A DNA stretch of 64,000 bases from Candidatus Zixiibacteriota bacterium (GTDB taxonomy: Bacteria; Zixibacteria; MSB-5A5; GN15; FEB-12). Both the position numbers and the translations under genes were made by a program. The stretch lies in assembly GCA_029860345.1 (NCBI GenBank), contig JAOUBJ010000003.1, forward strand, positions 68,709-132,708, in the 5' to 3' direction. The notes beneath the pieces are model-generated. The model had not been told where the DNA came from. It did not search any database and saw only the letters and a program-made list of their open reading frames with translations. Of this stretch, positions 36,342-49,165 are shown one piece after another (the first letter of the stretch is position 1; every line of letters begins with the position of its first letter).

Positions 36342-37562
36342 CTACGGCTGCCGGATGTTGATCAGCATCTGGCCTTTCTGCACCTCGACAATGATCTCGT
36401 CGGCATCGACAGTGTAAGTACGACGTTCGCTGGCATGCTTGGTTTTCAGCGAAACCGTGCGGAAACTCAAAGGACCCACCGTGTCACCCTCAAGCAAGGC
36501 GCCATCCTTGGCCAGCTTGACCACGCACACCGATTCACCGTCGTGAATGTTAACAAGGCGCATCACGATTTCCTGGTTGGGCGCCACCGTCTGCTTGTGC
36601 TGACGTCCGGCGGCAATGGTCTGACCAAATCCGAGTTCGATCTGCTGTATAGTAAAGGCGACGGTACCTTCGTTGACACGGATCACCACTTCATCGGCCT
36701 CCAGGGGTGTTTCTTCAAAGGTCCAACCACCGCCGGTTCCCTGATTGGGCAGGTTCAAACTGTACACCGAGACATCGGCAATAGGCAGGCCGAGAATGAA
36801 CGGCACGGCCGAGAACGAGGCGCTGCCGTCTGAGACGTTGCGCCCATGCACGTCCAGCCCGTAGCCCGGCTCCACGGCCACTTTGAAAAGCTCACCGGCG
36901 GCCACCGTCTGCTCAAAGGGCGGCGAAGTATGCTCCACACTGCTCACATCCAGAATCCAGCCCGGCACTTCAACCGGCCCCTGCCCCGCCTCGGATTTCG
37001 TGTTATAGCCTTCGGGAATTGCAAACATAGAGTCGTGAACAGCGGTCAATTCGATATTGTCTATCTCAAGAAACAACTCTTCCGAAATGTGATTGACCGT
37101 CTTGAGCACGAAATTAAGGTCCAGCGACAAGTATTCAGTCACCAACGGTTGACCCTGCATGCTGACAACAGTGATCTGACACTCATACCCGGCTATCTCC
37201 TCGCTGCCCAGGTCCCGCAGGGTGCCGATTCCGCGCAGGAACCTCATTCCCTGGATGGGGTCTACCATAATGCTCTGCTGATCGTTGGCCGCGATTTCTA
37301 CATACGTCTTATGTTGGGGAGAAAACGACCGACTCAAATTAGCCTCCTGGTCGACCGTCATGAACCAGGCAGCGCCACCTTCGGATAGGTCCATGCGGTA
37401 CCGAGAATTCTGTACATAGATCTTGCCGCGCGTGATTTTGTCAACATCGCCGATTGTAATGTCGGCCATAAACTGTCCCGGCGGGGCGCTTTCGCAGCCA
37501 AAACCGACCAGAGCCGTCAGAACCATCAAGGGCAGGACAAGAGATGCTCTCTTTAATGTCAT
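36342..37562 (-). CDS. Hypothetical lipoprotein (DUF4412-like N-terminal region suggested)
   Basis: ATG at 37562 gives MTLKRASLVLPLMVLTALVGFGC (lipobox). TRGKIYVQNSRYRMDL resembles DUF4412. The rest is unrecognised. Confidence 0.4.
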   Translation of the reverse strand: MTLKRASLVLPLMVLTALVGFGCESAPPGQFMADITIGDVDKITRGKIYVQNSRYRMDLSEGGAAWFMTVDQEANLSRSFSPQHKTYVEIAANDQQSIMVDPIQGMRFLRGIGTLRDLGSEEIAGYECQITVVSMQGQPLVTEYLSLDLNFVLKTVNHISEELFLEIDNIELTAVHDSMFAIPEGYNTKSEAGQGPVEVPGWILDVSSVEHTSPPFEQTVAAGELFKVAVEPGYGLDVHGRNVSDGSASFSAVPFILGLPIADVSVYSLNLPNQGTGGGWTFEETPLEADEVVIRVNEGTVAFTIQQIELGFGQTIAAGRQHKQTVAPNQEIVMRLVNIHDGESVCVVKLAKDGALLEGDTVGPLSFRTVSLKTKHASERRTYTVDADEIIVEVQKGQMLINIRQP

Positions 37563-37779
37563 GGCAGTGGTTTTCCTTCTCATTGAATTGTGGGCGGCAG
37601 ACATTCTCGTCTGCTCCTCCTTCGGCCCCAAACAAAGTTCAAGGCGGCCACCCGACGTTTTTGTACACCGGGTGAACGCATGTTCACATCCACCTACTCA
37701 GGCAAGGTAGCCCAGACCCGGTCGGTTGTCAAACAATTGAACTTCCGTCTTCGTGTCGCCGGTTGTCTCTCTGGTTGGC

Positions 37780-38009: not shown

Positions 38010-38891
38010 ATGCAGAAACAGACCTTTCACAGACCAGAGGAACTAAAGAAAGTCCTGCAATTAGCTGTCGGACGGCAGTTGACCCTGAGCCGCCCCCTGG
38101 TAATGGGTATACTGAACGTTACCCCCGATTCCTTCTCCGACGGCGGACGGTTTACCACGGTCGAGGCAGCCGTCGAACGAGCCCTTCAGATGGAACAATC
38201 GGGCGCTGATATAATCGACGTCGGCGGCGAATCAACCCGACCCGGAGCCAAACCGGTCGAGCAAGAAAAAGAACTCAAGCGCGTCATTCCGGTCATCAAC
38301 AGGCTGCGCGATCTGACCACCATTCCGATCTCAATTGATACTTACAAAGCGAGTGTAGCCGAAGCGGCTCTTGATGCCGGGGCCGATATGGTCAATGATA
38401 TTTCCGGTCTCAGGTTCGACACCAGAATGCTGCGATTGGTTGCCGACCGTCGAGTCGTGGTCGTGATCATGCACATGCAGGGAACACCGCGCGAAATGCA
38501 GGCCGATCCGCACTACGAAGACTGTGTCCGAGAAATATCGGAGTTCTTCAGGCGACGGATCGCAATCTGCATCAAACAAGGAATTGATAAATCCAAAATC
38601 ATAATCGATCCCGGCCTTGGATTCGGCAAGCGACTTAGTGACAATCTCGATATTCTGAATCACTTTGAGGAATTCTCGCAACTGGGTGTGCCTGTGATGG
38701 TGGCCGCATCGCGCAAATCGTTTATCGGCATGCTCCATGACGCTGATAAAGAAGCCGACCTCAGACTGGGCGGCTCACTGTCGGCAGCGATAGTCGGCGT
38801 GATGAAGGGGGCCGCTGTTGTCCGCACCCATGACGTAGCCGAGACGGTCGAAGCCCTGAAGGTTTTGCAGGCAGTTAAGGAATCCAAGTGA
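38010..38891 (+). CDS. folP: Dihydropteroate synthase
   Basis: 293-aa ORF. Signature GILNVTPDSFSDGGRF, GADIIDVGGESTRPGA, ISIDTYKASVA, MVNDISG, DPGLGFGK. Confidence 0.9.
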   Translation: MQKQTFHRPEELKKVLQLAVGRQLTLSRPLVMGILNVTPDSFSDGGRFTTVEAAVERALQMEQSGADIIDVGGESTRPGAKPVEQEKELKRVIPVINRLRDLTTIPISIDTYKASVAEAALDAGADMVNDISGLRFDTRMLRLVADRRVVVVIMHMQGTPREMQADPHYEDCVREISEFFRRRIAICIKQGIDKSKIIIDPGLGFGKRLSDNLDILNHFEEFSQLGVPVMVAASRKSFIGMLHDADKEADLRLGGSLSAAIVGVMKGAAVVRTHDVAETVEALKVLQAVKESK

Positions 38892-39019: not shown

Positions 39020-39781
39020 GTGAGTTTCTTTGAACTCGACTTTCTGACGTTTGGGTTGAAGGACGTTGTCGATATTCTCATCGTCGGATTCATCATCTAT
39101 CAGATACTGAAACTGGTTCGCGGCACTCGGTCAGCCCAAATCGTCATTGGGTTGACTTTGATCGCCGGACTGGCTTCAGTCGCCTTTTGGTTTCAACTGG
39201 AGGGACTGACCTGGCTGTTTAGTATCCTGGCGCCGTTCGGTCTGATCGTGCTGGTGATTGTCTTCCAGCCGGAACTGCGCGGCGTTCTGGCCCAAATGGG
39301 ACAACATCGTTTTCTGAGACGTTTCTTCACGGTGCAACAACGCCGAACAATCGAAGAGGTCACTCGGGCCGTTCTCAGGCTGGCCGAGTTGAACTATGGC
39401 GGCCTGATAGTAATGGAACGCAACACCGGTCTCAGGAACTTTGCCGAATCGGGCAAGGACTTAAACGCTGAGTTGTCATCGGAGCTACTGGTAACACTCT
39501 TCACACCATACACACCGCTTCACGATGGCGCCGTCATCGTCTCCGGTGATCACATTTCGGCCGCCGCTACATCGCTCCCGTTGACGACCAATCTTCGCTA
39601 TCGCAAACTGTTCGGCATGCGCCACAAAGCTGCCATAGGTGTCTCTGAAGTTTCCGACGCCGTCGTGGTGGTGGTATCAGAGGAAACCAGCCAGGTATCG
39701 ATAGCCTACAACGGCCTGTTGAACACCGATATTCCCAAATCAGAGTTCAAGGACAAGCTGACCGAGTATATGGGCAGGTAG
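39020..39781 (+). CDS. cdaA: Diadenylate cyclase CdaA/DacA (three N-terminal TM helices + DisA_N domain)
   Basis: 253-aa ORF with a GTG start. TM helices, then GGLIVMERNTGL, TPLHDGAVIV, GMRHKAAIGVSEVSDAVVVVVSEETSQVS (DGA and RHR-type motifs). Confidence 0.85.
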   Translation: MSFFELDFLTFGLKDVVDILIVGFIIYQILKLVRGTRSAQIVIGLTLIAGLASVAFWFQLEGLTWLFSILAPFGLIVLVIVFQPELRGVLAQMGQHRFLRRFFTVQQRRTIEEVTRAVLRLAELNYGGLIVMERNTGLRNFAESGKDLNAELSSELLVTLFTPYTPLHDGAVIVSGDHISAAATSLPLTTNLRYRKLFGMRHKAAIGVSEVSDAVVVVVSEETSQVSIAYNGLLNTDIPKSEFKDKLTEYMGR

Positions 39782-40090
39782 AGTTTACCGAGGCCACGCC
39801 AAGCGCGTGGCTTCGCAGGGCGTATTTTCATCTCCTGCAGCGGACTGGCACACAACGCCCACGATAGTACTTGGTGTTCTTTCTCCACGATCCAGCCCAC
39901 CCCGGCCCTGGATGACTCAAATGTGATACGCTCAACGTTTTGTGGAACAGTGAGTTCGGATCACGGCGAGAACTATTTTGCTTTTCCTCGCATGCCGCTG
40001 ACAGACTGTGGCAGTGACCTTTTGTATAATTCCGATGCACACGGAGAAGAAGACAACATCAACCTCCATCCGGAGTCGAAGACAGGAGAC

Positions 40091-40678
40091 ATGGATATGT
40101 CCCATTCACCCAGCCGTGATTCAACAGGACCGAGCGGCTATCGCTCCCATCTGATTAAAGCCGTCATCTATTTTGTCGTTATCGGTGGTGGCGTCGCTAC
40201 CGGCATTGTGGTTGCAACAAAACTCGGCGTTGCCGACAAACTTTCGTCGATGACGTATTCTGTCGAAGATCTCGACAACAACAGCCTTCTAAAGGTCGAA
40301 TCACCGTTTCCTCTGCTTGAGGCAACCGGTGTCGATGGCGACACTGTCGACCTCGTACCGCTCTTGAAAGGGCAACGGTGTGTCGTGGCCATAGTATCTG
40401 CCGGGTGCGAACCTTGCCACCGATTTATCCGATTTGCTGAGCGGGAGGGCATCGGTACCAATGACGATCTGCGCGTTATCCTGCTGGCCCTCGATCCGGA
40501 GCCGTTCAAAGAGGAAACTGACCTCACGGTGCTGAAGGTTTCGATGGATCAACTAAACGAGCACGACATATACTCTTTCCCCACCTTAATCGGCATAGGC
40601 AAGGATGGGCGCATGAAATTTGTGGCTTCCGGGTTCAACCGATACATCACCGAGGATTTCATCCGCGACAATATCTGA
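40091..40678 (+). CDS. Membrane-anchored thioredoxin-fold thiol:disulfide oxidoreductase (TlpA/ResA-like), CEPC active-site motif
   Basis: ATG at 40091 lies 5 nt after AGGAGA. One TM (LIKAVIYFVVIGGGVATGIVVA). Redoxin-like GDTVDLVPLLKGQRCVVAIVSAGCEPCHRF and a cis-Pro region YSFPTLIGIGKDGRM. The track start at 39923 has no SD. Confidence 0.6.
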   Translation: MDMSHSPSRDSTGPSGYRSHLIKAVIYFVVIGGGVATGIVVATKLGVADKLSSMTYSVEDLDNNSLLKVESPFPLLEATGVDGDTVDLVPLLKGQRCVVAIVSAGCEPCHRFIRFAEREGIGTNDDLRVILLALDPEPFKEETDLTVLKVSMDQLNEHDIYSFPTLIGIGKDGRMKFVASGFNRYITEDFIRDNI

Positions 40679-40710
40679 TCTAACATCTCAAACAGACAAG
40701 GAGGTATGTT

Positions 40711-40959
40711 ATGAAACGTTTACTTTTGATCGGAACTGTTTTTTGTGCCGCGGCTTTGTTGGGGTTCGGCGTAACCCTGTTCATGCCGCCCGATGCACAG
40801 GCGACAGAATGTAACCACAGCTACCCACAGACGGTGTGGGATTGCAGCAGTGGGACCTGTAATTTCCCTCTCTGTGCTAAGTACGATTGCTTCACCGTGA
40901 CCCCATGTTGTGGAGAACCGTGCCAATGTACGTTCGTCGGCTGCTTTCTCAAACCGTGA
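40711..40959 (+). CDS. Secreted Cys-rich mini-protein, array member a (82 aa, 10 Cys in the predicted mature part)
   Basis: AAGGAGG lies 7 nt upstream. MKRLLLIGTVFCAAALLGFGVTLFMPPDAQA | TECNHSYPQTVWDCSSGTCNFPLCAKYDCFTVTPCCGEPCQCTFVGCFLKP. Confidence 0.8.
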   Translation: MKRLLLIGTVFCAAALLGFGVTLFMPPDAQATECNHSYPQTVWDCSSGTCNFPLCAKYDCFTVTPCCGEPCQCTFVGCFLKP

Positions 40960-41000
40960 CTTGAGACTGACCCGATAAGTTTGAACCTGTGGCCACAATC

Positions 41001-41031
41001 GGCCGGGGCTGCTCGGCAGAGCAGCCCGGCC
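41001..41031 (+). terminator. Post-gene hairpin after member a
   Basis: ggccggggctgctc-ggca-gagcagcccggcc. A 13-bp GC-rich stem with one bulge and no clear T-run. Confidence 0.45.
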
Positions 41032-41204
41032 AATATGGATTACGGGCCAGCGGTCCCATGCGGTTCGAGAAACAAAAAAGGTCGAAACAACCAACTGATG
41101 AGCGATAGACGATCGCGTCCGTCGGGTTCGGCCGAACACCTATGGGAGGGATACTCAACAAAGACAGTTAGACTCAAAACTTCTGACACACCATGGAGGG
41201 ATGT

Positions 41205-41468
41205 ATGAAACGTTTTCTTTTGATCGGAACTCTGTTCTGTACCGCGGCTCTGCTTGGACTTGGGATCACGCTGTTCCTGCCGTCCGAGGCAGGAGCCTGG
41301 GAATGCGACGAAACTACTCGCATAACGATGTTCAAGTGCGTTTCCGACGAGTGTACCGATCCGAACTTTCCGGTGGAAAAACTGGACTGCGGTTCCAGCA
41401 ATCCACCGGGACACTATTGCGATTGTTACCATGTCAGTTGCCAGTTGCGGTGCCCGCCGGGCTGGTAG
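41205..41468 (+). CDS. Secreted Cys-rich mini-protein, member b (87 aa, 8 Cys)
   Basis: Start moved to the conserved ATG after GGAGG. MKRFLLIGTLFCTAALLGLGITLFLPSEAGA | WECDETTRITMFKCVSDECTDPNFPVEKLDCGSSNPPGHYCDCYHVSCQLRCPPGW. Confidence 0.8.
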   Translation: MKRFLLIGTLFCTAALLGLGITLFLPSEAGAWECDETTRITMFKCVSDECTDPNFPVEKLDCGSSNPPGHYCDCYHVSCQLRCPPGW

Positions 41469-41510
41469 ACCCGTGACCAGATAGGCTGAACCAGCGCTCA
41501 TCAATGGTGA

Positions 41511-41534
41511 AGGCTGCTCCATCCGGGGCAGCCT
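41511..41534 (+). terminator. Conserved post-gene hairpin after member b
   Basis: aggctgctcc-atcc-ggggcagcct, preceded by the conserved taggctgaacc.gcgctcatca block. Confidence 0.5.
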
Positions 41535-41631
41535 GGTCAAAATGACGGGCGCAGGTGAAGTCGGAACTTTGGATCATCGAAGTTTCCGAAGTTTTCAATG
41601 ACGAATGCGGACAGCGGTGTCAATCGGATTC

Positions 41632-41701
41632 AGCCGACACCTGATGGAGGGATTTCTCAACGAAGTCAGTTAGATTCACAACTTCAAACAAACCATGGAG
41701 G
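41632..41701 (+). promoter_or_regulatory. Conserved ~70-nt 5' leader upstream of array member c
   Basis: agccgacacctgatggagggatttctcaacgaagtcagttagattcacaacttcaaacaaaccatggagg. It recurs at 42139-42208 with one mismatch. A diverged version lies upstream of member b. Confidence 0.55.
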
Positions 41702-41707
41702 TTTTGT

Positions 41708-41980
41708 ATGAAACGTTTTCTTTTGATCGGAACTCTGTTCTGTACCGCGGCTCTGTTCGGACTCGGGATCACGCTGTTCCTGCCGTCCGACGCATACGCG
41801 GGGATCTGCATAGAAGCCGAACGACAGGCCTACTTCGACTGCGCCGACGCGGCATGTTCGCCCCCGACACCGGTGGGTGTTTATGACTGCGGAACCTGGG
41901 ACGGTGGCAACGACCCCGGTGGTCCTTGCAATTGTCAATTCATCCGCTGCCAGTTGAAGTGCCCGCCCCCACCGCTGTAG
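41708..41980 (+). CDS. Secreted Cys-rich mini-protein, member c (90 aa, 8 Cys)
   Basis: MKRFLLIGTLFCTAALFGLGITLFLPSDAYA | GICIEAERQAYFDCADAACSPPTPVGVYDCGTWDGGNDPGGPCNCQFIRCQLKCPPPPL. Confidence 0.8.
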   Translation: MKRFLLIGTLFCTAALFGLGITLFLPSDAYAGICIEAERQAYFDCADAACSPPTPVGVYDCGTWDGGNDPGGPCNCQFIRCQLKCPPPPL

Positions 41981-42026
41981 TGGTGGCCTGACACACCAGG
42001 CTGAATCCACGCCCGTCATTGATCCA

Positions 42027-42048
42027 GGCTGCTCCAGACGGAGCAGCC
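42027..42048 (+). terminator. Conserved post-gene hairpin after member c
   Basis: ggctgctcc-agac-ggagcagcc. A perfect 9-bp stem followed by gggtttgaaag. Confidence 0.5.
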
Positions 42049-42138
42049 GGGTTTGAAAGCCGAGCGTGAGCCTGGCCTTGGTGCTTGACAATGGGATATG
42101 CCGGTGATGAGTGCTTGACGTGAGTGTCATTCGGACTA

Positions 42139-42208
42139 AGCCGACACCTGATGGAGGGATTTCTCAACGAAGTCAGTTAGATTCGCAACTTCAAACAAAC
42201 CATGGAGG
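42139..42208 (+). promoter_or_regulatory. Second copy of the conserved 5' leader, upstream of member d
   Basis: Identical to 41632-41701 except a->g at one position. It ends in the shared acttcaaaca(a/g)accatggagg SD block found before members b-g. Confidence 0.55.
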
Positions 42209-42213
42209 TATGT

Positions 42214-42483
42214 ATGAAACGTTTTCTGTTGGTCGGTGCGTTGTTCGGCACAGCAGCATTGTTGGGATTCGGGATAGTACTGTTCTTGCCAACCGACGCC
42301 TCGGCCACCTGGTGCGACACTAATGACCGGTTCACTTGGTTTGACTGCGACGATCCGGTTTGCTCGGAACCGACACAGGTTGGTGTTTATGACTGCGGGT
42401 CTGACTGGTTCCCCTGGGGTCGTCTTCCCTGCGACTGCGTTTTCATCCGTTGCCAACTAAAATGCCCGACGCCGCTGCCTTGA
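42214..42483 (+). CDS. Secreted Cys-rich mini-protein, member d (89 aa, 8 Cys)
   Basis: MKRFLLVGALFGTAALLGFGIVLFLPTDASA | TWCDTNDRFTWFDCDDPVCSEPTQVGVYDCGSDWFPWGRLPCDCVFIRCQLKCPTPLP. Confidence 0.8.
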   Translation: MKRFLLVGALFGTAALLGFGIVLFLPTDASATWCDTNDRFTWFDCDDPVCSEPTQVGVYDCGSDWFPWGRLPCDCVFIRCQLKCPTPLP

Positions 42484-42543
42484 TGGCGTAAGGGTGTGGT
42501 TGTCATTGGACCTACGAATCGAAACAAACCATGGAGGTTTTGT

Positions 42544-42816
42544 ATGAAACGTTTTCTTTTGATCGGAACTCTGTTCTGTACCGCGGCTCTCTTCGGACTC
42601 GGGATTACACTGTTCCTGCCGTCCACCGCCGTAGCCTGTCATTGCGACGAGAATGACCGGCAGCCCTGGTTCGACTGTGAAGACCCCGGTTGCACGCCGG
42701 AATTACCCGTCGGCCTTTATGACTGCGGAACATGGGACGGTTACTGCATCCCCCCCGGGACTCCCTGCAACTGTCAGTTCGTCCGCTGTCAATTGAAGTG
42801 CCCGACTCCGATTTAG
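42544..42816 (+). CDS. Secreted Cys-rich mini-protein, member e (90 aa, 10 Cys)
   Basis: MKRFLLIGTLFCTAALFGLGITLFLPSTAVA | CHCDENDRQPWFDCEDPGCTPELPVGLYDCGTWDGYCIPPGTPCNCQFVRCQLKCPTPI. Confidence 0.8.
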   Translation: MKRFLLIGTLFCTAALFGLGITLFLPSTAVACHCDENDRQPWFDCEDPGCTPELPVGLYDCGTWDGYCIPPGTPCNCQFVRCQLKCPTPI

Positions 42817-42861
42817 TAATAGCTTGACCCTTTAGCTTGAACCTGCGCTCATCATTGGCCG

Positions 42862-42885
42862 AGGCTGCTCCGTCCGGGGTGGCCT
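42862..42885 (+). terminator. Degenerate copy of the post-gene hairpin after member e
   Basis: aggctgctcc-gtcc-ggggtggcct followed by tgtttgaag. Confidence 0.4.
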
Positions 42886-43049
42886 TGTTTGAAGATGAAG
42901 CACAGGTGAAACCTGAATTATAGAAGATTGGAGTCACCAATGACGGGCGCAGACAACACTGTCTATCGGGTTCAGCCGGGACTCGACGGAGGCCTTCCTC
43001 CGTGACAACATTCAGTTTCACAACTTCAAACAAACCATGGAGGTACGTT

Positions 43050-43310
43050 ATGAAACGTTTTCTTTTGACCGGTACGGTTTTTTGTGCCGCCGCCATTCTT
43101 GGGATCGGAGTCACTCTGTTCCTTCCCAGCAACGCCGTTGCTTGTATATGTGACTTTTACGACCCCCAAGTGATGTTCGAGTGCGACAGTCCGCTCTGTT
43201 CAGCCCCGACCCCGCACGCCCTCTTTGATTGCTTCACCTGTGTAGGAACGGGCGCTCCGTGCAGCTGCACATTTAGGGAATGTCGGACTAGGTGTCCCAA
43301 CCCGATCTAA
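43050..43310 (+). CDS. Secreted Cys-rich mini-protein, member f (86 aa, 10 Cys)
   Basis: MKRFLLTGTVFCAAAILGIGVTLFLPSNAVA | CICDFYDPQVMFECDSPLCSAPTPHALFDCFTCVGTGAPCSCTFRECRTRCPNPI. Confidence 0.8.
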   Translation: MKRFLLTGTVFCAAAILGIGVTLFLPSNAVACICDFYDPQVMFECDSPLCSAPTPHALFDCFTCVGTGAPCSCTFRECRTRCPNPI

Positions 43311-43355
43311 GGGTAGTCTGACATCATAGGCTGAACCCACGCTTGTCATTGGCTG

Positions 43356-43379
43356 AGGCTGCCCCATCCGGGGCAGCTT
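43356..43379 (+). terminator. Conserved post-gene hairpin after member f
   Basis: aggctgcccc-atcc-ggggcagctt. A 10-bp stem including one G-U pair, followed by cgtttgaat. Confidence 0.5.
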
Positions 43380-43544
43380 CGTTTGAATACCGAGCGCGGA
43401 GACGGTCTTGATATGTGACAATTGGAATTGCCGATGATGGGTGCTTGACAACGGTGTCATGCTAGTTCAGCCGACAACTTGAAGGGGCTTTCCACCACGC
43501 TAAACTGTAACATTTGAACTTCAAACAGACCATGGAGGTATGTT

Positions 43545-43805
43545 ATGAAACGTTTTCTGAAGGTTGGTATGTTGTTCTGTACCGCCGCCATTCTCGGGAT
43601 GGGAATCACTCTATTCCTTCCAGGCAATGCCTCAGCTTGCATTTGTCTCCCCGAGGTCTGGCAACCGTTATACGATTGTGACAGTCCGCTTTGTTCAGAA
43701 CCTACTCCGCACGCCGTATATGACTGTGGCACTTGTTCAGGATCAAGCAATCCGTGTGGCTGCGTCTTTAAGGAATGTCGCACGAGATGCGTCATCGAGC
43801 CGTAA
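43545..43805 (+). CDS. Secreted Cys-rich mini-protein, member g (86 aa, 10 Cys)
   Basis: MKRFLKVGMLFCTAAILGMGITLFLPGNASA | CICLPEVWQPLYDCDSPLCSEPTPHAVYDCGTCSGSSNPCGCVFKECRTRCVIEP. Confidence 0.8.
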   Translation: MKRFLKVGMLFCTAAILGMGITLFLPGNASACICLPEVWQPLYDCDSPLCSEPTPHAVYDCGTCSGSSNPCGCVFKECRTRCVIEP

Positions 43806-43850
43806 CGATAGTATGATACTTTAGGCTGAACCCACGCTCATCATCGGTAG

Positions 43851-43884
43851 AGGCTGCTCCATCCGGGGCAGCCTTGCTTTATTT
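43851..43884 (+). terminator. Conserved post-gene hairpin plus T-rich tract after member g (end of array)
   Basis: aggctgctcc-atcc-ggggcagcct followed by tgctttatttgtgg. Confidence 0.55.
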
Positions 43885-43952
43885 GTGGATTTGCGCGATA
43901 GCTGGCTCTGCCGCCGGACAGACACAGACAACCACCATGATAGGCCGTCCAA

Positions 43953-45905
43953 TCAGTTATTGAGTCCGAGCGCTTGTTTCAGTTGGTTTATTTTGGCCAG
44001 CAACCGCGTGTCATTTGGCCTGAGCCTGTATAGCTGCTCGTATTGGTACAGCGCCGAGTCCAGTTGCCCCTCCTGGTCAAAAATATACCCCAGGCGATCA
44101 TAACCCGGTGCGAAATCCGGCGCGTACTGTATGGTAGTTCGGAAGTACTGTCTGGCTGCCTCAATGTCATTGTTCAGTTGGGCAATTCGCCCGAGGCTGA
44201 AATTGTACTGGGGATATACCGGAAACTTCTGAAGCCCAGCCTCTAAGATACTCTTCGCCTTGTCAATCTGATTGGACTTCATGTACGTTTTCCCAAGGTT
44301 TTCATACAACTGCATATTGTCCGGCGACAACCGAAGCGCCCGCTCCATATACATGGCCGCTTGATCATAGTCCGCCCGGTTGTGGTAACTGTTTCCCACA
44401 AACCCGGCAAAGAAAGAGCGATTGGTGGGCGAATCAATGTCTCCTCCGATGTTCAATACTGCCAGCAATAACGCCAAAACGGTCAGACCGACCCAGAAGA
44501 AGCGGCGGTCCGAATGAAAATATCCTATCAGACCCCGGCCTCCGTAAACGGCAAAAACCACGGCCAGTGGCAAGACTGGTTGGCGAAAACGGGCACAGAC
44601 AAAGAAGGCCGTCACAACTAAGGCCATCCCGACGACATAGGCCAGGGGAACGAACAAGTCCAGCCTCTCGCGCCGCGCATAAAAGAACCCCAGGAAAGCC
44701 AGTCCGAAGATCAGCCCGGTGGGGAAATTGAGAGCGTACTTCCATAGAGCCAATCTCATAAACCAGGAATACTCACCGCTGTAATACAATGAGTAGTTGT
44801 TGATAATCTCCTGACCATGGAAGAAATAGTAGAATTTCCTGACCACCCGAACCGCTGCCGCCATCGGCTCCTCTGTCATTTCCTTCACCGTTTCACCAAA
44901 CCAAAAACTGGAGACTTCGCTTTCTCTGAACTTCCGCCCCGCCCGGCGCTCGGCTTCATCAACCGAGGCAGTCCATACATTGTCACGGTACTTGCCCATG
45001 CGCAGTGGTGGCCCGGGCGACTTGACGGTGATTCCGTCTGCTTCTGAGTTGTTGCCGATATAGAAGTTCACTCCACCCTGGGTCGAGATCAGAACAAACT
45101 CCCCCCCCTTCGTCACATTAGCCAGGGTTACCGGAAGAATCGGTAGAGAGATTCCCAGTAGAAACCAAAGGCTCGGCAACATGAGCATCTTGCGGTTGGA
45201 CCATCCACTCTTCAACAAGAGAGCTACCGGAAGAATGATCAAAAGGGGAAGTATCGTCGGTCTTGTGATTGCTGCCAAGCCCAGGACAACACCGGCAACG
45301 AGACTGTTCCGCAACCGGGGGGAGTTGACCGCGATATAGCTGCAGTAGATTGCCAGCATGTAGAGAAACACTGTCATCGTTGTCATCAGTGTCTCCCCTT
45401 CGTAGAAAATCAAAGTCGGATACACCGCTACTACAGCAGCAGCCCAAAGGGCCAATCGCCGACCGATAAGCTTCGTTGCGAAACGGTAAGTCACAACGAC
45501 TGTCAACAGACCCAGAATGTTCTGGAAAACGACAACCGGCCACGGTGATACGCCAAACCACTGGTACAATTGAGCCACCGTGTACGGGTAAAGTGGAGCC
45601 CGAAAAAAAGGGCTGTCCATCTTAACTCCGTTCAGAATATCCAGCGCCCAGGTATGATAGGCTTGGCTGTCGAGCAGGTAATTGCCCCAGAAAATACTGC
45701 CGGCCAGATCAATGTCGTAGAGACCACGAAGCAACGCACCCACGGCAATGATGATAAGCAGGGACTTGTGTTCGATCCAGAATGGTTGCGATCGGGTAGA
45801 CGGCTTCGGTCCTTTTCGATCTCGCCTGTTCTTCAATCGGTCCTCCGTTGGAGCGTTTTGAGCCTTGGGGACTCCGGCGATAACCGGTCCCGGTTGCTCT
45901 GCCAC
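43953..45905 (-). CDS. Polytopic GT39-like (ArnT/PMT_2-type) glycosyltransferase fused to C-terminal TPR repeats
   Basis: 650-aa ORF. About 11 hydrophobic helices with PMT_2-like segments (FFRAPLYPYTVAQLYQWFGVSPWPVVVFQNILGLLTVVVTYRFATKLIGRRLALWAAAVVAVYP). C-terminal TPRs (YHNRADYDQAAMYMERALRLSPDN..., YENLGKTYMKSNQIDKAKSILEAGLQKFP...). Confidence 0.6.
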   Translation of the reverse strand: MAEQPGPVIAGVPKAQNAPTEDRLKNRRDRKGPKPSTRSQPFWIEHKSLLIIIAVGALLRGLYDIDLAGSIFWGNYLLDSQAYHTWALDILNGVKMDSPFFRAPLYPYTVAQLYQWFGVSPWPVVVFQNILGLLTVVVTYRFATKLIGRRLALWAAAVVAVYPTLIFYEGETLMTTMTVFLYMLAIYCSYIAVNSPRLRNSLVAGVVLGLAAITRPTILPLLIILPVALLLKSGWSNRKMLMLPSLWFLLGISLPILPVTLANVTKGGEFVLISTQGGVNFYIGNNSEADGITVKSPGPPLRMGKYRDNVWTASVDEAERRAGRKFRESEVSSFWFGETVKEMTEEPMAAAVRVVRKFYYFFHGQEIINNYSLYYSGEYSWFMRLALWKYALNFPTGLIFGLAFLGFFYARRERLDLFVPLAYVVGMALVVTAFFVCARFRQPVLPLAVVFAVYGGRGLIGYFHSDRRFFWVGLTVLALLLAVLNIGGDIDSPTNRSFFAGFVGNSYHNRADYDQAAMYMERALRLSPDNMQLYENLGKTYMKSNQIDKAKSILEAGLQKFPVYPQYNFSLGRIAQLNNDIEAARQYFRTTIQYAPDFAPGYDRLGYIFDQEGQLDSALYQYEQLYRLRPNDTRLLAKINQLKQALGLNN

Positions 45906-46129
45906 TGGCTAAGTTACTTCTGTTGCCGGTTTAGTCAAGCTGTTTGGAGGTAGACGGAGGCCCGAGACTTTTCGCCGTTCTGGTGTGCCCCCGACACCAC
46001 TCATTTGACAAATCAGCTACATTCCAGTATCTTCGCCGCCGCTAAGCAGCTTGAACCGTCGCCCGATAACTATCAAAGATGCGACCGGGGCCGAGTAAAC
46101 GGCTGCAAAATGAAAGTGTGCCTGTAGTG

Positions 46130-47929
46130 ATGGACCAGAAACAGATCAGAAACTTCTCGATAATCGCCCATATCGACCATGGCAAATCTACCCTGGCCGA
46201 CCGTCTGTTGCAGGACACACACACCCTGCCCGACCGTCAGATGAAAGCCCAGGTGCTCGACACCATGGACCTGGAACGGGAGAGGGGTATCACTATCAAG
46301 GCCCACGCGATCCGACTCAAATATGTAGCCTCCGATGGCCTCGATTACCAGCTCAATCTGATTGACACCCCCGGCCATGTCGATTTCACCTACGAGGTCA
46401 GTCGCTCACTGGCCGCTTGCGAGGGAGCCATCCTGGTTGTCGATGCTTCGCAGGGGATTGAAGCTCAGACCTTGTCGAATCTCTACCTGGCCATGGAGAA
46501 CGACCTGGAGATTCTGCCGGTTGTCAACAAAATAGACCTGCCCAACGCCGAGACCGAACGAGTGGTCGGAGAAATCGTGGAATTGTTGGGATGTAACGCT
46601 GACGATATCGTCAGATGCTCGGCCAAGACCGGTATTGGTGTCGACCAGGTTCTGACGGCCATAGTCGAAAAGATACCACCGCCCGAAGGTGACCCGGATG
46701 CGCCGCTGCAGGCCATGGTCTTCGACTCTGTGTTCGACAGCTACCGGGGAGCCATGCCATTCGTGCGGATTATGAACGGCACCTTGCACAAAGGTGCGCG
46801 CGTGAAATTCTTCTCGACCGCTCAGACTTACGAAGTGGACGAACTCGGCCACATGATTCTGTCTACCATATCGCAGGAATCACTCTCAGCCGGTGAGGTG
46901 GGTTACTTCTTCGCTTCGATCAAGGAAGTAGCCGACACGCGAATAGGAGACACCATCACCACCGCCGCCCACCCGGCCAAGACCGCACTTGAGGGCTTCA
47001 TCGATGTAAAACCAATGGTCTTCTCCGGGCTCTATCCGGCCATCGCCGAAGATTTCAGTCGGCTGCGCGAATCGCTTGAGAAACTGAAACTCAATGACTC
47101 CTCGCTCACTTTCACACCGGAGTCTTCGACGGCTCTGGGCTTTGGTTTCCGGGTCGGCTTTCTCGGACTTTTGCACATGGAGATTATTACCGAACGACTG
47201 TCACGCGAATACGGCCAAACGATAATCAACACCGTACCCAATGTCGAATACCACGTGCACAAGTCCGATGGTTCCATAGTTGATGTAGACAACCCGGCCG
47301 ATCTGCCTTCACCGGGCGACACGGAATTCATAGAGGAGCCCTATGTCGACGCCCAGATAATCGCGCCGGCTGAGTACATCGGTGCTATTATGCGTCTGTC
47401 GATGGACCGCCGGGGTGAATACAAGGACACTGAATACCTGACTTCAGATCGGGTCAGCCTGTCCTACCGTTTTCCATTGTCGGAGATCATTTTTGATTTC
47501 TATGACAAACTAAAATCGTCCACGCGCGGTTACGCCTCGCTTGACTACGACCAGCCTTACTATCGTCGCTCAGACGTTGTCAAGCTGGACATTCTACTCA
47601 ACGCAGAACCGGTCGACGCCCTCTCGGTGATTATTCATCGCGACAAAGCTTACCGTTGGGGTAAAGAACTCAACGAAAAACTCCGCACATTGATACCGCG
47701 ACAGATGTACGAAGTCGTCATCCAGGCCACTATCGGCAGCCGCATTGTCAGCCGCGCCACGGTACGACCCTTGCGCAAGAATGTCACGGCCCGATGCTAC
47801 GGTGGCGACATCACCCGCAAACGCAAGCTTCTGGAAAAACAGAAGGAAGGCAAGAAGCGGATGAAACAATTCGGCTCTGTGGAGATACCTCAGGAAGCCT
47901 TCCTGGCCGCCCTCCAAATCGACCGGTGA
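46130..47929 (+). CDS. lepA: Elongation factor 4 (LepA)
   Basis: The ATG at 46130 gives [27 protein letters not shown], followed by [14 protein letters not shown] and the LepA C-terminal domain. 599 aa. The track start at 46079 adds 17 atypical residues. Confidence 0.95.
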
Positions 47930-48421: not shown

Positions 48422-49165
48422 TTACCACAGGTCGGCGGGAAAGGTGATAGCGATTTTCACGTCGGCTTGCGGCGTTACGCTCACGGAAAAAGTCGTTGTA
48501 TCATTGTCGGGCAGGTATACGACCCTAAGGGTCTGATTGCCTGCCGGTATACCGACAAACGAGAAGCCGCCCTGAATCGTGGGATTGATCATACTCGTGG
48601 TCGTACTGCCGACGCCATCGGGATACGTCAGATGAATCTCCAACGAGTCGGAGTAAACAGCACCCGGCATTTCATCGTCGGCATCTACTATGTATCCGTC
48701 AACCGTGTTGCTCAGCAGAGCAGCGGTAGACGTTGCGAGAAGTTTGTCGATGTTCGATCCCGATCCGGTCGAACGAATGAGTGAATCGGAGTAGGTGTAT
48801 AACACGTTCCAACCATCCGTCTTGAATTCGTTCAGATCGATTCCGCGATTAATATAGGGTCCATCCCAGGTTGAGTATCCACCCGCGTTGGTCACCAAGG
48901 CATCCAGGTTGGGCGGCAACGACCCAACATCGCCGACATACCCAAAATCCGTTCGGCTGCTCTCGCTGTATAGATTCGTGTTACCGGCAATAGCTTCGGC
49001 CAGCGCATTCATTTCTTTCAGGGTGTGCTCGTACCTGGCCGTTTCCACCGAGGTCGACAGTTTGCGCACGGCCACCGTAGCCAGTATACCGACGATTATT
49101 ATCACCATGACCAGCTCTATCAGCGTGAAACCCCGGTTGTTGCGAAGGGACAAGATCACTGGCAA
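48422..49165 (-). CDS. Type IV pilin/T2SS pseudopilin-like protein (prepilin N-terminal motif) with a CarboxypepD_reg-like C-terminal domain
   Basis: 247 aa. MPVILSLRNNRG|FTLIELVMVIIIVGILATVAV. Shared block DFGYVGDVGSLPPNLDALVTNAGGYSTWDGPY. C-terminal GYIVDADDEMPGAVYSDSLEIHLTYPDG...GFSFVGIPAGNQTLRVVY. Confidence 0.75.
   Translation of the reverse strand: MPVILSLRNNRGFTLIELVMVIIIVGILATVAVRKLSTSVETARYEHTLKEMNALAEAIAGNTNLYSESSRTDFGYVGDVGSLPPNLDALVTNAGGYSTWDGPYINRGIDLNEFKTDGWNVLYTYSDSLIRSTGSGSNIDKLLATSTAALLSNTVDGYIVDADDEMPGAVYSDSLEIHLTYPDGVGSTTTSMINPTIQGGFSFVGIPAGNQTLRVVYLPDNDTTTFSVSVTPQADVKIAITFPADLW

What the first reader, a model, noticed from the sequence alone, without database searches (positions are those of the whole stretch)
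40091..45905. Array is bracketed by a CxxC thioredoxin-fold membrane protein and a GT39-like/TPR glycosyltransferase: possible maturation module
The TlpA-like gene (CEPC motif, single TM) ends 32 nt before array member a on the same strand, with no intervening hairpin. That fits a dedicated periplasmic oxidoreductase or isomerase for proteins with 4-5 disulfides. Immediately after the array, convergently, lies a polytopic PMT/ArnT-like glycosyltransferase with TPR repeats. Five of the seven peptides carry an (S/T)-x-P-(T/E)-(P/Q/L) stretch right after the third Cys: SPPTP, SEPTQ, TPELP, SAPTP and SEPTP. This is the kind of Pro/Thr-rich loop that PMT-type enzymes O-glycosylate in other bacteria. 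The usual cdaA partners (cdaR/ybbR, glmM) are absent downstream of cdaA, so this block looks inserted. The functional linkage is hypothesis only.
Basis: inference. Interest (0 to 1): 0.6.

Follow-up and report, generated by a model that had tools for sequence, protein, structure and literature searches.

The report
Cysteine-rich peptide array with dedicated thioredoxin-like partner
A candidate-phylum (Zixibacteria) genome carries seven tandem genes for small secreted cysteine-rich proteins that always sit directly behind a membrane-anchored thioredoxin-like enzyme, whereas the neighbouring glycosyltransferase was at this site before the peptides and is not reliably tied to them.

Summary
A 193-aa single-TM TlpA/ResA-like protein (CEPC) ends 32 nt before the first of seven paralogous Sec-signal peptide genes with 8-10 Cys. 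A PMT_2 + TPR GT-C glycosyltransferase converges on the end of the array.

The two halves of the interpretation fare differently. The Trx-peptide link is well supported. In all seven relative lineages where the upstream side can be read, the same Trx gene lies 32-37 nt upstream on the same strand. This holds whatever the peptide copy number (1 or 7) and whether or not the GT is present. The C-x-P-C motif and the cis-Pro are invariant. Cys counts in the mature peptides are even in 37 of 40 family members.

The GT link is weak. GTs at this locus form one clade that sits beside cdaA. That clade and its sister occur without Trx or peptide (folP-cdaA-GT-lepA). The GT is missing from three lineages that keep Trx + peptide, one of them with a 100% identical peptide. 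The proposed S/T-x-P-T/E acceptor loop occurs in only 7 of 40 family members and is absent from one lineage where the GT is adjacent.

A residual hint remains: every S/T-x-P-loop peptide whose context is known has the GT next to it.

Verdict: a new, lineage-restricted variant of the [quoted passage not shown] theme. Glycosylation is unproven.

The parts
39020..39781 (+). cdaA (diadenylate cyclase); upstream anchor of the variable cdaA-lepA interval
   Evidence: Pfam CdaA_N + DAC, E 2.4e-37. It is 72-92% identical in all related loci.
40097..40678 (+). Membrane-anchored TlpA/ResA-like thiol-disulfide oxidoreductase, 193 aa, active site C-E-P-C, cis-Pro FPT (alternative start 40091)
   Evidence: C-x-P-C, FPT and SGF are invariant across 9 homologues. 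AF2 domain pLDDT is 78-91. Foldseek hits TlpA/ResA/DsbE at E ~1e-8. The profile hits PDB ResA at E 4e-4. Only 8 protein clusters were found in 5.8e9.
40711..40959 (+). Peptide a (82 aa; 31-aa Sec-type signal ending A-Q-A; 10 Cys in the mature part)
   Evidence: The RBS AAGGAGG lies 8 nt upstream.
41205..41468 (+). Peptide b (87 aa; 8 Cys)
   Evidence: P0009, found elsewhere, looks like a b-type orthologue.
41708..41980 (+). Peptide c (90 aa; 8 Cys; loop SPPTP)
   Evidence: AF2 pLDDT is 83 overall and 87-94 in the mature part, with three long beta-strands. No PDB fold match.
42214..42483 (+). Peptide d (89 aa; 8 Cys; loop SEPTQ); only 60 nt and no hairpin before e
42544..42816 (+). Peptide e (90 aa; 10 Cys; loop TPELP)
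43050..43310 (+). Peptide f (86 aa; 10 Cys; loop SAPTP)
43545..43805 (+). Peptide g (86 aa; 10 Cys; loop SEPTP)
41001..41031 (+). GC-rich hairpin after peptide a
   Evidence: MFE -33.5 kcal/mol, z -3.2.
41511..41536 (+). Conserved hairpin GGCTGCTCC-ATCC-GGGGCAGCC after peptide b. Equivalent copies lie at 42026-42048 (after c), 42863-42885 (after e), 43356-43380 (after f) and 43850-43875 (after g).
   Evidence: Repeat family D3 and inverted repeats I1-I6. MFE -27 to -39 kcal/mol. The copy after g scores as terminator-like. The same element follows the single peptide gene in L029.
43953..45836 (-). GT-C glycosyltransferase: PMT_2 membrane domain (~11 TM) plus C-terminal TPR domain, 627 aa; convergent with the array (the ORF extends to 45905)
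   Evidence: Pfam PMT_2 E 1.2e-13 and TPR families. More than 440 homologues. It belongs to a clade of cdaA-locus GTs. Crude hydropathy gives ~11 TM, with N-in and TPR-out.
46079..47929 (+). lepA; downstream anchor of the interval
   Evidence: Pfam families. It is 74-91% identical in related loci.

Best explanation
The core unit is two-part: a membrane-anchored, periplasm-facing TlpA/ResA-like thiol-disulfide oxidoreductase (C-x-P-C) co-transcribed with Sec-exported mini-proteins of ~55 aa.

After signal-peptidase cleavage at a conserved A-x-A, each peptide is predicted to fold into a three-stranded beta-sheet held by four disulfides. A fifth disulfide appears where two extra Cys are present.

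The Trx-fold enzyme most likely acts on these peptides as a reductase/isomerase. It would resolve mispaired disulfides, as DsbC and the bacteriocin accessory oxidoreductases do, rather than act as the primary oxidant. The basis is that x-P active sites (CGPC, CEPC, CVPC) are typical of reducing Trx-fold proteins. This step is inferred.

In this genome the single ancestral peptide gene has expanded to seven old, divergent paralogues. The duplicated unit is ~500 nt and comprises RBS, signal, mature part and 3' hairpin. The hypervariable mature parts on a fixed Cys scaffold suggest a diversified extracellular effector, for example an antimicrobial or binding peptide. That function is inferred, not shown.

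The PMT_2 + TPR glycosyltransferase is an older resident of the cdaA-lepA interval with its own, unknown substrate(s). It is not a dedicated maturation enzyme of the array.
For: Shown:
- Strict Trx->peptide adjacency (32-37 nt, same strand) holds in all seven lineages with a readable flank, through GT presence, absence and inversion, and through copy numbers of 1 (relatives) and 7 (window).
- There is no hairpin between Trx and peptide a, but strong hairpins follow six of the seven peptide genes.
- Both families are tiny and co-restricted. The peptide family has 16 clusters at 90% identity and 23 representatives at 50% identity out of 1.8e9 proteins. The Trx family has 8 clusters.
- C-x-P-C and the cis-Pro are invariant, and the fold is TlpA/ResA-like.
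- Eight Cys columns are conserved. 37/40 members have an even Cys count in the mature part. In the 10-Cys members examined (window a, e, f, g and P0164) the two extra Cys occur together.
- A-x-A precedes the mature part in nearly all members.
- GT independence: L033/34 is folP-cdaA-GT-lepA and L019 is cdaA-GT, both without Trx or peptide. GT is absent in L004, L010 and L014. L014 and L024 peptides are identical while only L024 has the GT. L010 and L024 differ by a clean GT-sized indel ~139 nt upstream of Trx.

Known precedent: Trx-fold accessory proteins are needed for disulfide-containing bacteriocins, namely PedC, BlpG(St) and BdbA/BdbB (PMC4919988, PMC6405829).
Against: - Trx homologues at 32-36% identity exist without any peptide gene: L013 (cdaA-Trx-lepA) and L012. 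The enzyme may therefore have an older, different substrate.
- TlpA, ResA and CcmG are classically cytochrome c or Cu-centre maturation reductases, and ResA has the same CEPC motif.
- All relatives come from one narrow clade, so conserved adjacency could partly be inherited synteny.
- No expression, redox or mass data exist.
- No partner that would recycle the enzyme (CcdA/DsbD or DsbB/VKOR) was looked for.
- The GT cannot be fully dismissed. The locus GTs form a clade seen only at this locus, and every S/T-x-P-loop peptide with known context (window, L029, L027) has the GT adjacent.
Confidence: 0.5

Rival explanations
1. The peptides are oxidatively folded by the Trx-like protein and O-glycosylated in the periplasm on the S/T-x-P-T/E loop by the PMT_2 + TPR GT-C enzyme. 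The TPR domain would recognise the peptides, as in TMTC. It would amount to a Sec-dependent, periplasmic analogue of glycocin clusters.
For: - GT is adjacent to Trx + peptide in 4 of 7 lineages, in two different gene orders: GT-Trx-pep in L024 and L027, and Trx-pep-> <-GT in the window and L029.
- The GTs at this locus form one clade distinct from the unlinked paralogue P0033.
- Peptides with an S/T-x-P loop and known context all have the GT adjacent. The clade that lost Ser/Thr from the loop (PPN[LF]PN, GPILKAG) is the one where the GT is missing in 3 of 4 lineages.
- Crude topology puts the TPR domain in the periplasm.
Against: - The GT clade and its sister occur at the cdaA locus with no Trx or peptide (L019, L033/34).
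- Identical peptides occur with and without the GT (L024 versus L014).
- L024 has the GT but no Ser/Thr in the loop.
- The motif is present in only 7/40 family members.
- The loop-GT correlation rests on roughly one evolutionary transition.
- The donor, the acceptor class and even protein-versus-lipid specificity of this GT are unknown.
Confidence: 0.2
2. The Trx-like protein is a housekeeping extracytoplasmic reductase for cytochrome c or copper-centre maturation, as ResA, CcmG and TlpA are. It merely shares a conserved chromosomal neighbourhood with the peptide genes, and the peptides are folded by general machinery.
For: - The fold and the CEPC motif are those of ResA/TlpA.
- Distant homologues occur without peptides, including cdaA-Trx-lepA in L013.
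- All the evidence for linkage is synteny within one clade.
Against: - The family is extremely small (8 clusters in 5.8e9 proteins), which is unlike a housekeeping enzyme.
- No ccs/res/ccm or sco/cox genes lie beside it in any locus.
- The 32-37 nt hairpin-free junction to the peptide gene, carrying the same RBS leader as the internal array junctions, is kept while everything else around it changes.
Confidence: 0.15
3. The peptides are periplasmic metal-binding (for example Cu or Zn thiolate) or redox-buffer proteins. Their cysteines are kept reduced by the TlpA-like reductase, as TlpA does for ScoI, rather than forming disulfides.
For: - C-x-C and C-x3-C spacings occur in the C-terminal half.
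- TlpA-type enzymes reduce metal-site cysteines (PDB 4txo and 4txv titles).
Against: - The Cys count is even in 37/40 members. In the 10-Cys members examined the extra Cys come in pairs: an N-terminal Cys with a loop Cys in e, f, g and P0164, and two loop Cys in a.
- There is a confident beta-sheet model.
- No His/Met-rich motifs are present.
Confidence: 0.07

Closest known systems
TlpA / ResA / CcmG (DsbE) family of membrane-anchored extracytoplasmic thiol-disulfide oxidoreductases
   Same: Both have a single N-terminal anchor and a Trx fold with C-x-P-C and a cis-Pro. The CEPC motif is identical to that of B. subtilis ResA. The structural match is E ~1e-8.
   Different: Sequence similarity is marginal: Pfam Redoxin is below its cut-off and there is no NCBIfam hit. 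There are no cytochrome or copper maturation genes nearby. It is co-transcribed with Cys-rich secreted peptides.
Bacteriocin-dedicated thiol-disulfide oxidoreductases: PedC (pediocin PA-1), BlpG(St), BdbA/BdbB (sublancin 168)
   Same: In both cases a Trx-fold CxxC protein is encoded next to a small secreted disulfide-containing peptide and is needed, or proposed to be needed, for correct disulfide pairing (PMC4919988, PMC6405829).
   Different: The known examples are in Firmicutes and have double-glycine leaders, ABC-transporter/peptidase export and 1-3 disulfides. Here there is a Sec-type signal, a diderm-type candidate phylum, 4-5 disulfides, a beta-sheet scaffold, no transporter or immunity gene in the locus, and no demonstrated antimicrobial activity.
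Glycocin gene clusters (sunA-sunT-bdbA-sunS-bdbB; pallidocin palA/S/T/dbA/dbB)
   Same: The gene triad is the same: peptide, Trx-like protein and glycosyltransferase (PMC6405829).
   Different: Glycocin GTs are soluble cytoplasmic SunS-like (GT2) enzymes that act before export. The GT here is a polytopic GT-C enzyme with TPRs that would act in the periplasm. Its linkage to the peptides is not conserved.
TMTC1-4 (eukaryotic GT-C + TPR protein O-mannosyltransferases) and actinobacterial/fungal PMT (GT39)
   Same: Both have an N-terminal GT-C membrane domain related to PMT_2/ArnT followed by C-terminal TPRs, as in TMTC (PMC7801869). PMTs O-mannosylate Ser/Thr- and Pro-rich stretches of translocated proteins.
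   Different: There is no hit to PMT (PF02366) at E <= 0.1, and no MIR, PMT_4TMC or DUF1736 domain appears among the Pfam hits. No solved homologue of the membrane domain was found by sequence. The acceptor class is unknown.
cdaA-cdaR-glmM operon of Firmicutes
   Same: cdaA is followed by genes for membrane or envelope proteins.
   Different: There is no YbbR/CdaR and no glmM. In this clade cdaA is followed instead by the GT and/or the Trx-like gene, with folP upstream and lepA downstream.

Membership tests
TlpA/ResA-like thioredoxin-fold oxidoreductases | Trx fold with an N-terminal beta-hairpin and central insertion, judged by structural similarity to TlpA/ResA/DsbE | tested here: met
   The AF2 model has pLDDT 78-91 over residues 60-180. 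Foldseek hits 3kcm, 4txv, 1jfu and 2h19 at E ~1e-8, prob 1.00, TMt 0.55-0.71.
TlpA/ResA-like thioredoxin-fold oxidoreductases | Conserved CxxC active site and cis-Pro loop | tested here: met
   C104-x-P106-C107 and F161-P162-T163 are invariant in 9 homologues.
TlpA/ResA-like thioredoxin-fold oxidoreductases | Sequence-profile membership (Pfam Redoxin/AhpC-TSA/Thioredoxin_2 above the gathering score) | tested here: not met
   Redoxin scores 14.3 bits against a cut-off of 26.6. There is no NCBIfam hit. One distant homologue has a precomputed PF13098 hit, flagged weak. The profile against the PDB reaches only E 5.6e-5 to 5e-4.
TlpA/ResA-like thioredoxin-fold oxidoreductases | Extracytoplasmic location through a single N-terminal membrane anchor | tested here: inconclusive
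   A hydrophobic helix at residues ~15-42 and a basic N-terminus are seen. No topology predictor or experiment was available.
GT39 protein O-mannosyltransferases (PMT) | PMT domain (PF02366), with the C-terminal 4TMC module (and MIR domains in eukaryotes) | tested here: not met
   Only PMT_2 (PF13231, 52 bits) and TPR families were hit at E <= 0.1. PF02366, PMT_4TMC and MIR do not appear.
GT-C superfamily (PMT_2/ArnT-like) | Polytopic membrane domain matching a GT-C clan profile, with acidic residues in the first extracytoplasmic loop | tested here: met
   PMT_2 E 1.2e-13 over residues 102-252 of the 650-aa ORF. 'YD' and 'LDS' in the first loop are conserved in the orthologues read. About 11 TM segments by hydropathy. 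A catalytic role for these residues was not tested.
TMTC-like GT-C + TPR O-mannosyltransferases | N-terminal GT-C domain followed by C-terminal TPRs on the lumenal/periplasmic side | tested here: inconclusive
   The architecture is met. A periplasmic TPR location follows only from a crude odd TM count. DUF1736 was not hit. Activity is not testable here.
Glycocin-type biosynthetic clusters | SunS-like GT2 glycosyltransferase, a double-glycine leader peptide and a SunT-type peptidase/ABC transporter | tested here: not met
   The GT is GT-C PMT_2. The peptides have Sec-type signals with A-x-A. No ABC transporter lies in the locus.
Peptide + dedicated oxidoreductase module (functional class, not a sequence family) | Conserved co-directional adjacency of the peptide and oxidoreductase genes across genomes | tested here: met
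   Seven of seven lineages with a readable flank show it.
Peptide + dedicated oxidoreductase module (functional class, not a sequence family) | Oxidoreductase-dependent disulfide pairing of the peptide | not testable with these tools
   This needs co-expression and mass spectrometry.

The most novel reading that the evidence does not exclude
This would be a periplasmic, Sec-dependent counterpart of glycocins. Disulfide-knotted mini-proteins would be proofread by a dedicated TlpA-like isomerase, and those with an S/T-x-P-T/E loop would be O-glycosylated by a bacterial TMTC-like GT-C/TPR enzyme. Loss of the acceptor loop in one subclade would have been followed by repeated loss of the GT. That would give the first assigned protein substrate for the very large, uncharacterised bacterial PMT_2 + TPR family.
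Probability: 0.15. Interest if true: 0.75.

Novelty: new variant of a known kind. Interest (0 to 1): 0.42.

Why it matters
If the Trx-peptide link holds, it has three consequences:
- It defines an undescribed family of secreted, disulfide-rich mini-proteins in an uncultured phylum. The family has no Pfam or NCBIfam model, no PDB fold match, and about 40 sequences among 15 billion proteins.
- It shows that the 'private oxidoreductase for a small secreted peptide' arrangement, known from Gram-positive bacteriocins, also exists with Sec export and a TlpA/ResA scaffold.
- It offers compact new disulfide scaffolds, each with its candidate folding catalyst, for expression work.

The analysis also shows that a PMT_2 + TPR glycosyltransferase is a recurrent neighbour of cdaA in this clade. 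That is a separate lead on c-di-AMP and envelope biology.

Tried and rejected
- Rfam scan of 36-50 kb: only two sub-threshold chance hits, so no known RNA is involved.
- Pfam and NCBIfam on the peptides and the Trx protein: nothing, or sub-threshold hits only.
- GTDB genome scan with the Trx profile: it found only JAUWIB01, which was already known.
- Metagenome scan with the peptide profile: nothing found. The repeat with the Trx profile gave one useful new locus, L027, and one unrelated one, L028.
- dN/dS between paralogues, as a test for diversifying selection: synonymous sites are saturated in the mature part (mean pS 0.81). Where measurable, dN/dS is 0.19-0.48. Positive selection can be neither claimed nor excluded.
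- Search for relics of a deleted GT in the cdaA-Trx spacers of L004, L010, L014 and the window: none found.
- Search for a near-identical GT orthologue from the L010 genome among the GT hits: none above 80% identity to L024's GT came from an NCBI source. MAG incompleteness and the limited hit list make this weak evidence.
- Foldseek of the peptide model against the PDB: no match below E 2.9.
- Sigma-70 promoter scan: no more sites than in shuffled sequence (4 found, 4.2 expected), so unit-internal promoters remain unresolved.
- Rejected idea that the array is a recent amplification: mature parts are only 25-63% identical, and b-type and c/e-type relatives exist in other samples.
- Rejected lipoprotein reading of the Cys within the signal: the residues before it (L-F-C) do not fit a lipobox (inference from the sequence).

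Full report
**Origin and layout**

The window matches a 370-kb metagenomic contig (ENA ERZ27296428). NCBI names its proteins as coming from a candidate division Zixibacteria MAG. The gene order around the finding is as follows:

| Feature | Coordinates | Strand |
|---|---|---|
| DUF4412-like | 36342-37631 | - |
| folP | 38010-38891 | + |
| cdaA | 39020-39781 | + |
| Trx-like ORF | 40097-40678 | + |
| seven small ORFs (a-g) | 40711-43805 | + |
| PMT_2 + TPR ORF | 43953-45836 | - |
| lepA | 46079-47929 | + |
| type IV pilin-like genes | downstream of lepA | - |

**Checking the observation**

The Trx-like ORF stops at 40678 and peptide a starts at 40711. The 32 nt between them contain an AAGGAGG RBS and no stable structure (MFE -5 kcal/mol, z +1.7).

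The protein has one N-terminal hydrophobic helix and a domain that AlphaFold models at pLDDT 78-91. Foldseek places that domain with TlpA, ResA, DsbE and other membrane-anchored thiol-disulfide oxidoreductases (E ~1e-8, prob 1.00). A profile of the family finds ResA by sequence (E 4e-4), and ResA's own active site also reads CEPC. Pfam alone is below threshold (Redoxin E 0.036).

C-x-P-C, the cis-Pro motif F-P-T and an S-G-F motif are invariant in nine homologues, down to 32% identity. All 193-aa orthologues begin MSxxP / MPEHA.

The seven peptides share a 31-residue Sec-type signal (MKRFLLIGTLFCTAAL.G.G.TLFLP..A.A) and eight conserved Cys. The loops SPPTP, SEPTQ, TPELP, SAPTP and SEPTP follow the third conserved Cys, as described.

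The convergent ORF hits PMT_2 (E 1.2e-13) and many TPR families. It does not hit PMT (PF02366), so 'GT39' is only the NCBI label.

**The array**

The repeat unit is about 500 nt. It includes a nearly identical RBS leader (TCAAACAAACCATGGAGGTATGTTATG, also present at the Trx-a junction), the signal-coding part, the divergent mature part, and an ~80-nt 3' element. That element ends in a 10-12 bp GC hairpin, GGCTGCTCC-ATCC-GGGGCAGCC.

Hairpins of -27 to -39 kcal/mol follow a, b, c, e, f and g. There is none between Trx and a, and none in the 60-nt d-e spacer.

The paralogues are old. Their mature parts are 25-63% identical while their signals are 58-94% identical. Non-synonymous difference is 0.43 in the mature part against 0.17 in the signal. 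Synonymous sites are saturated in the mature part, so positive selection cannot be tested.

**The peptide family**

The family is very small and restricted:
- A word-indexed search of 5.8e9 clusters gave 16 clusters, 7 of them from the window itself.
- A full HMMER scan of 1.84e9 representatives gave 23.
- There is no Pfam or NCBIfam model.

In an alignment of 40 distinct sequences, eight Cys columns are conserved. The number of Cys after the signal is even in 37 of 40 members: 8 in 30 members, 10 in 5, and 6 in 2. In the 10-Cys members examined the extra Cys co-occur as pairs. In e, f, g and P0164 an N-terminal Cys pairs with a Cys in the C4-C5 loop. This is what fully disulfide-bonded proteins look like, not metal-thiolate sites.

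The AF2 model of peptide c has pLDDT 83 overall and 87-94 in the mature part. It shows three long beta-strands and has no PDB fold match (best E 2.9).

**Co-occurrence test**

I fetched every context I could.

Peptide-bearing loci:

| Lineage | Gene order |
|---|---|
| L004-9/L026 | folP-cdaA-Trx-1 peptide-lepA |
| L010/11/18 (GCA_030605565.1) | same |
| L014-17 | same |
| L024/25 | cdaA-GT(+)-Trx-1 peptide |
| L027 (Trx 45% identical, CGPC) | GT(+)-Trx-1 peptide |
| L029 (GT 74% identical) | Trx-1 peptide-hairpin-> <-GT, the window layout with one copy |
| L030 | at least 5 tandem peptide genes; flanks unknown |

In all seven lineages with a readable flank, the Trx gene is immediately upstream and co-directional. 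The GT is adjacent in four of them.

Loci without peptides:

| Locus | Gene order |
|---|---|
| L013 | cdaA-Trx(CEPC, 32-36% identical)-lepA |
| L012 | Trx alone |
| L019 (GT 66% identical) | folP-cdaA-> <-GT, 25 nt apart |
| L033/34 | folP-cdaA-GT-lepA |
| L020-22 (GT 52% identical) | LptE-GT-peptidase M24 |

In an NJ tree of about 50 full-length GTs, those found at the cdaA locus form one clade: the window, P0026, P0027/L019, P0028/L024, P0031 and L027. P0042 (L033/34) is its sister, and the LptE-linked P0033 lies elsewhere.

**What this means for the GT**

The simplest history is that this GT paralogue was already a neighbour of cdaA (cdaA-GT-lepA) before the peptide gene existed there. The Trx gene may be equally old at the site, given L013.

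Within the peptide-bearing clade the GT has been lost or moved repeatedly:
- L010 and L024 have 96%-identical Trx proteins and 93.5%-identical DNA for 139 nt upstream of Trx. Beyond that point they differ by the presence of the whole GT gene.
- L014 and L024 encode 100% identical peptides, yet only L024 has the GT.

The proposed acceptor loop is not a family trait. The S/T-x-P-T/E-x pattern occurs in 7 of 40 members: five in the window, plus L027 and P0158. Fourteen members have no Ser/Thr in that loop at all. L024, with the GT adjacent, reads CPPNLPN. The widely conserved motif in that region is instead P-H-[AG]-x-[YFW]-x-C-G-T.

Every S/T-x-P-type loop with known context has the GT adjacent (window, L029 with SEPYP, L027 with SAPTP). 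The subclade that lost Ser/Thr from the loop is the one losing the GT. This rests on roughly one evolutionary transition and is not statistically meaningful, but it keeps the glycosylation hypothesis alive at low probability.

**Mechanism**

Shown:
- a hairpin-free operonic junction from Trx to the peptide gene
- a periplasm-type Trx-fold enzyme with an intact active site
- Sec-type signals with A-x-A
- even, scaffold-like Cys patterns
- adjacency that is invariant across rearrangements

Inferred:
- The enzyme works on the peptides.
- It acts as a reductase/isomerase. C-x-P-C motifs (CGPC, CEPC, CVPC) are those of reducing Trx-fold proteins, and 4-5 disulfides in ~55 residues make isomerisation the limiting step.
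- It is recycled by a CcdA/DsbD-like partner encoded elsewhere.
- The hairpins act as partial terminators or stabilisers.
- The peptides are diversified extracellular effectors.

**Precedents and differences**

PedC, BlpG(St) and BdbA/BdbB are Trx-fold accessory proteins of disulfide-containing bacteriocins (PMC4919988, PMC6405829). Glycocin clusters combine a peptide, a Trx-like protein and a glycosyltransferase. Their GT, however, is a cytoplasmic SunS-type enzyme, and export is through a double-glycine leader and ABC transporter (PMC6405829).

The GT here resembles TMTC1-4 in architecture, with a GT-C domain related to PMT_2/ArnT plus TPRs (PMC7801869). It has no assigned substrate and no solved sequence homologue for its membrane domain.

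**'Inserted block'**

cdaR/YbbR and glmM are absent downstream of cdaA in the window and in all relatives examined. In L005, glmM-glmS lie ~6 kb upstream of cdaA; the 64-kb window has neither. The cdaA-lepA interval is a variable spot. Its content ranges from GT only, through Trx only, Trx + peptide and GT + Trx + peptide, to Trx + 7 peptides + inverted GT. Only the peptide genes are clearly a lineage-specific addition.

**Verdict**

The bracket is real. The Trx-peptide half of the proposed module is well supported by comparative evidence. It is a new, lineage-restricted variant of a known theme.

The glycosyltransferase half is not supported as a dedicated maturation step. It is better explained by older synteny with cdaA, with a small residual chance (~0.15-0.2) that some peptides are its substrates. 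No literature on these proteins was found.

Noticed in passing
window 41474-41552, 41989-42067, 42825-42903, 43319-43397, 43814-43892; L029 2100-2190 (minus strand): An ~80-nt 3' element (TGAC..TAGGCTGAACCCACGCTCATCATTGG..GAGGCTGCTCCATCCGGGGCAGCC) follows most of the peptide genes. It is better conserved between paralogues, and in the L029 orthologue, than the mature-peptide coding sequence. It may be a terminator or stabiliser, or the substrate for the unequal crossing-over that built the array.
   Followed up: partly
window 40685-40713 and the 30 nt before each peptide start (e.g. 41178-41207, 42517-42546): A near-identical leader, TCAAACA(A/G)ACCATGGAGGTATGTTATG, precedes all seven peptide genes, including at the Trx-a and d-e junctions. 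Synonymous difference in the signal-coding part is much lower among b, c and e (pS 0.14-0.25) than in their mature parts (0.62-0.89). This suggests gene conversion or nucleotide-level constraint at the 5' end.
   Followed up: partly
L030 1-1791 (JGI 3300033529): This is a second tandem array in another metagenome: at least five peptide genes in 1.8 kb, spaced 74-195 nt apart, with their own signal variant (MKRxxVFGVFFxAAAAMGFGLNLL). Multi-copy arrays are therefore not unique to the window.
   Followed up: partly
L033/L034 1267-6020; L019 558-3997; L023-25: A PMT_2 + TPR glycosyltransferase of one clade (with its sister) is a recurrent immediate neighbour of cdaA in these Zixibacteria, including loci with no Trx or peptide (L033/34 is folP-cdaA-GT-lepA; L019 is cdaA-> <-GT). 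It might take the place that cdaR/glmM hold in Firmicutes, which would be a possible link between c-di-AMP and the envelope.
   Followed up: partly
L028 735-1787 (60% GC contig, Ga0233365_1021072): An unrelated high-GC contig carries two paralogous small Cys-containing peptide genes (MKKMQAVADRLLEKFVPHASAQAVEC... and MKRMRSVADRLLETFVPHASARAAEC...). They are followed by a TM-anchored TlpA-like gene with ...SAGCEPCH. This is an independent case of 'Cys peptides next to a CEPC Trx-fold protein'.
   Followed up: no
L023 5444-6445: In this contig the Trx ORF breaks off after '...YAFP' into unrelated sequence, and a second Trx start of the L014 type follows 200 nt later. It is probably an assembly chimera between strains, or a local rearrangement.
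   Followed up: no
window 40379-40381 (Trx Cys95): A third Cys, nine residues before the CxPC motif (R/K-C-[IV]-[IV]), is conserved in the six close peptide-linked Trx orthologues. It is Thr or Val in L027, L012, L013 and P0022. It could be a resolving cysteine specific to that subgroup.
   Followed up: no
P0009 (ENA, 979-nt contig): This b-type peptide orthologue has Trp where the seventh conserved Cys should be (HVRWQLKC), giving 7 Cys. It could be a sequencing error, a decaying copy or a free-thiol variant.
   Followed up: no
window 39783-39830: An inverted repeat, GCCACGC-CAAGC-GCGTGGC, lies just after the cdaA stop. A ~315-nt spacer then precedes the Trx gene. Trx and the peptides may therefore be transcribed separately from folP-cdaA.
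   Followed up: no
window 48422-50340 (minus strand) and beyond: A run of three or more genes for large type IV pilin-like proteins with N-terminal GFTLIE methylation motifs (245-413 aa) lies downstream of lepA.
   Followed up: no
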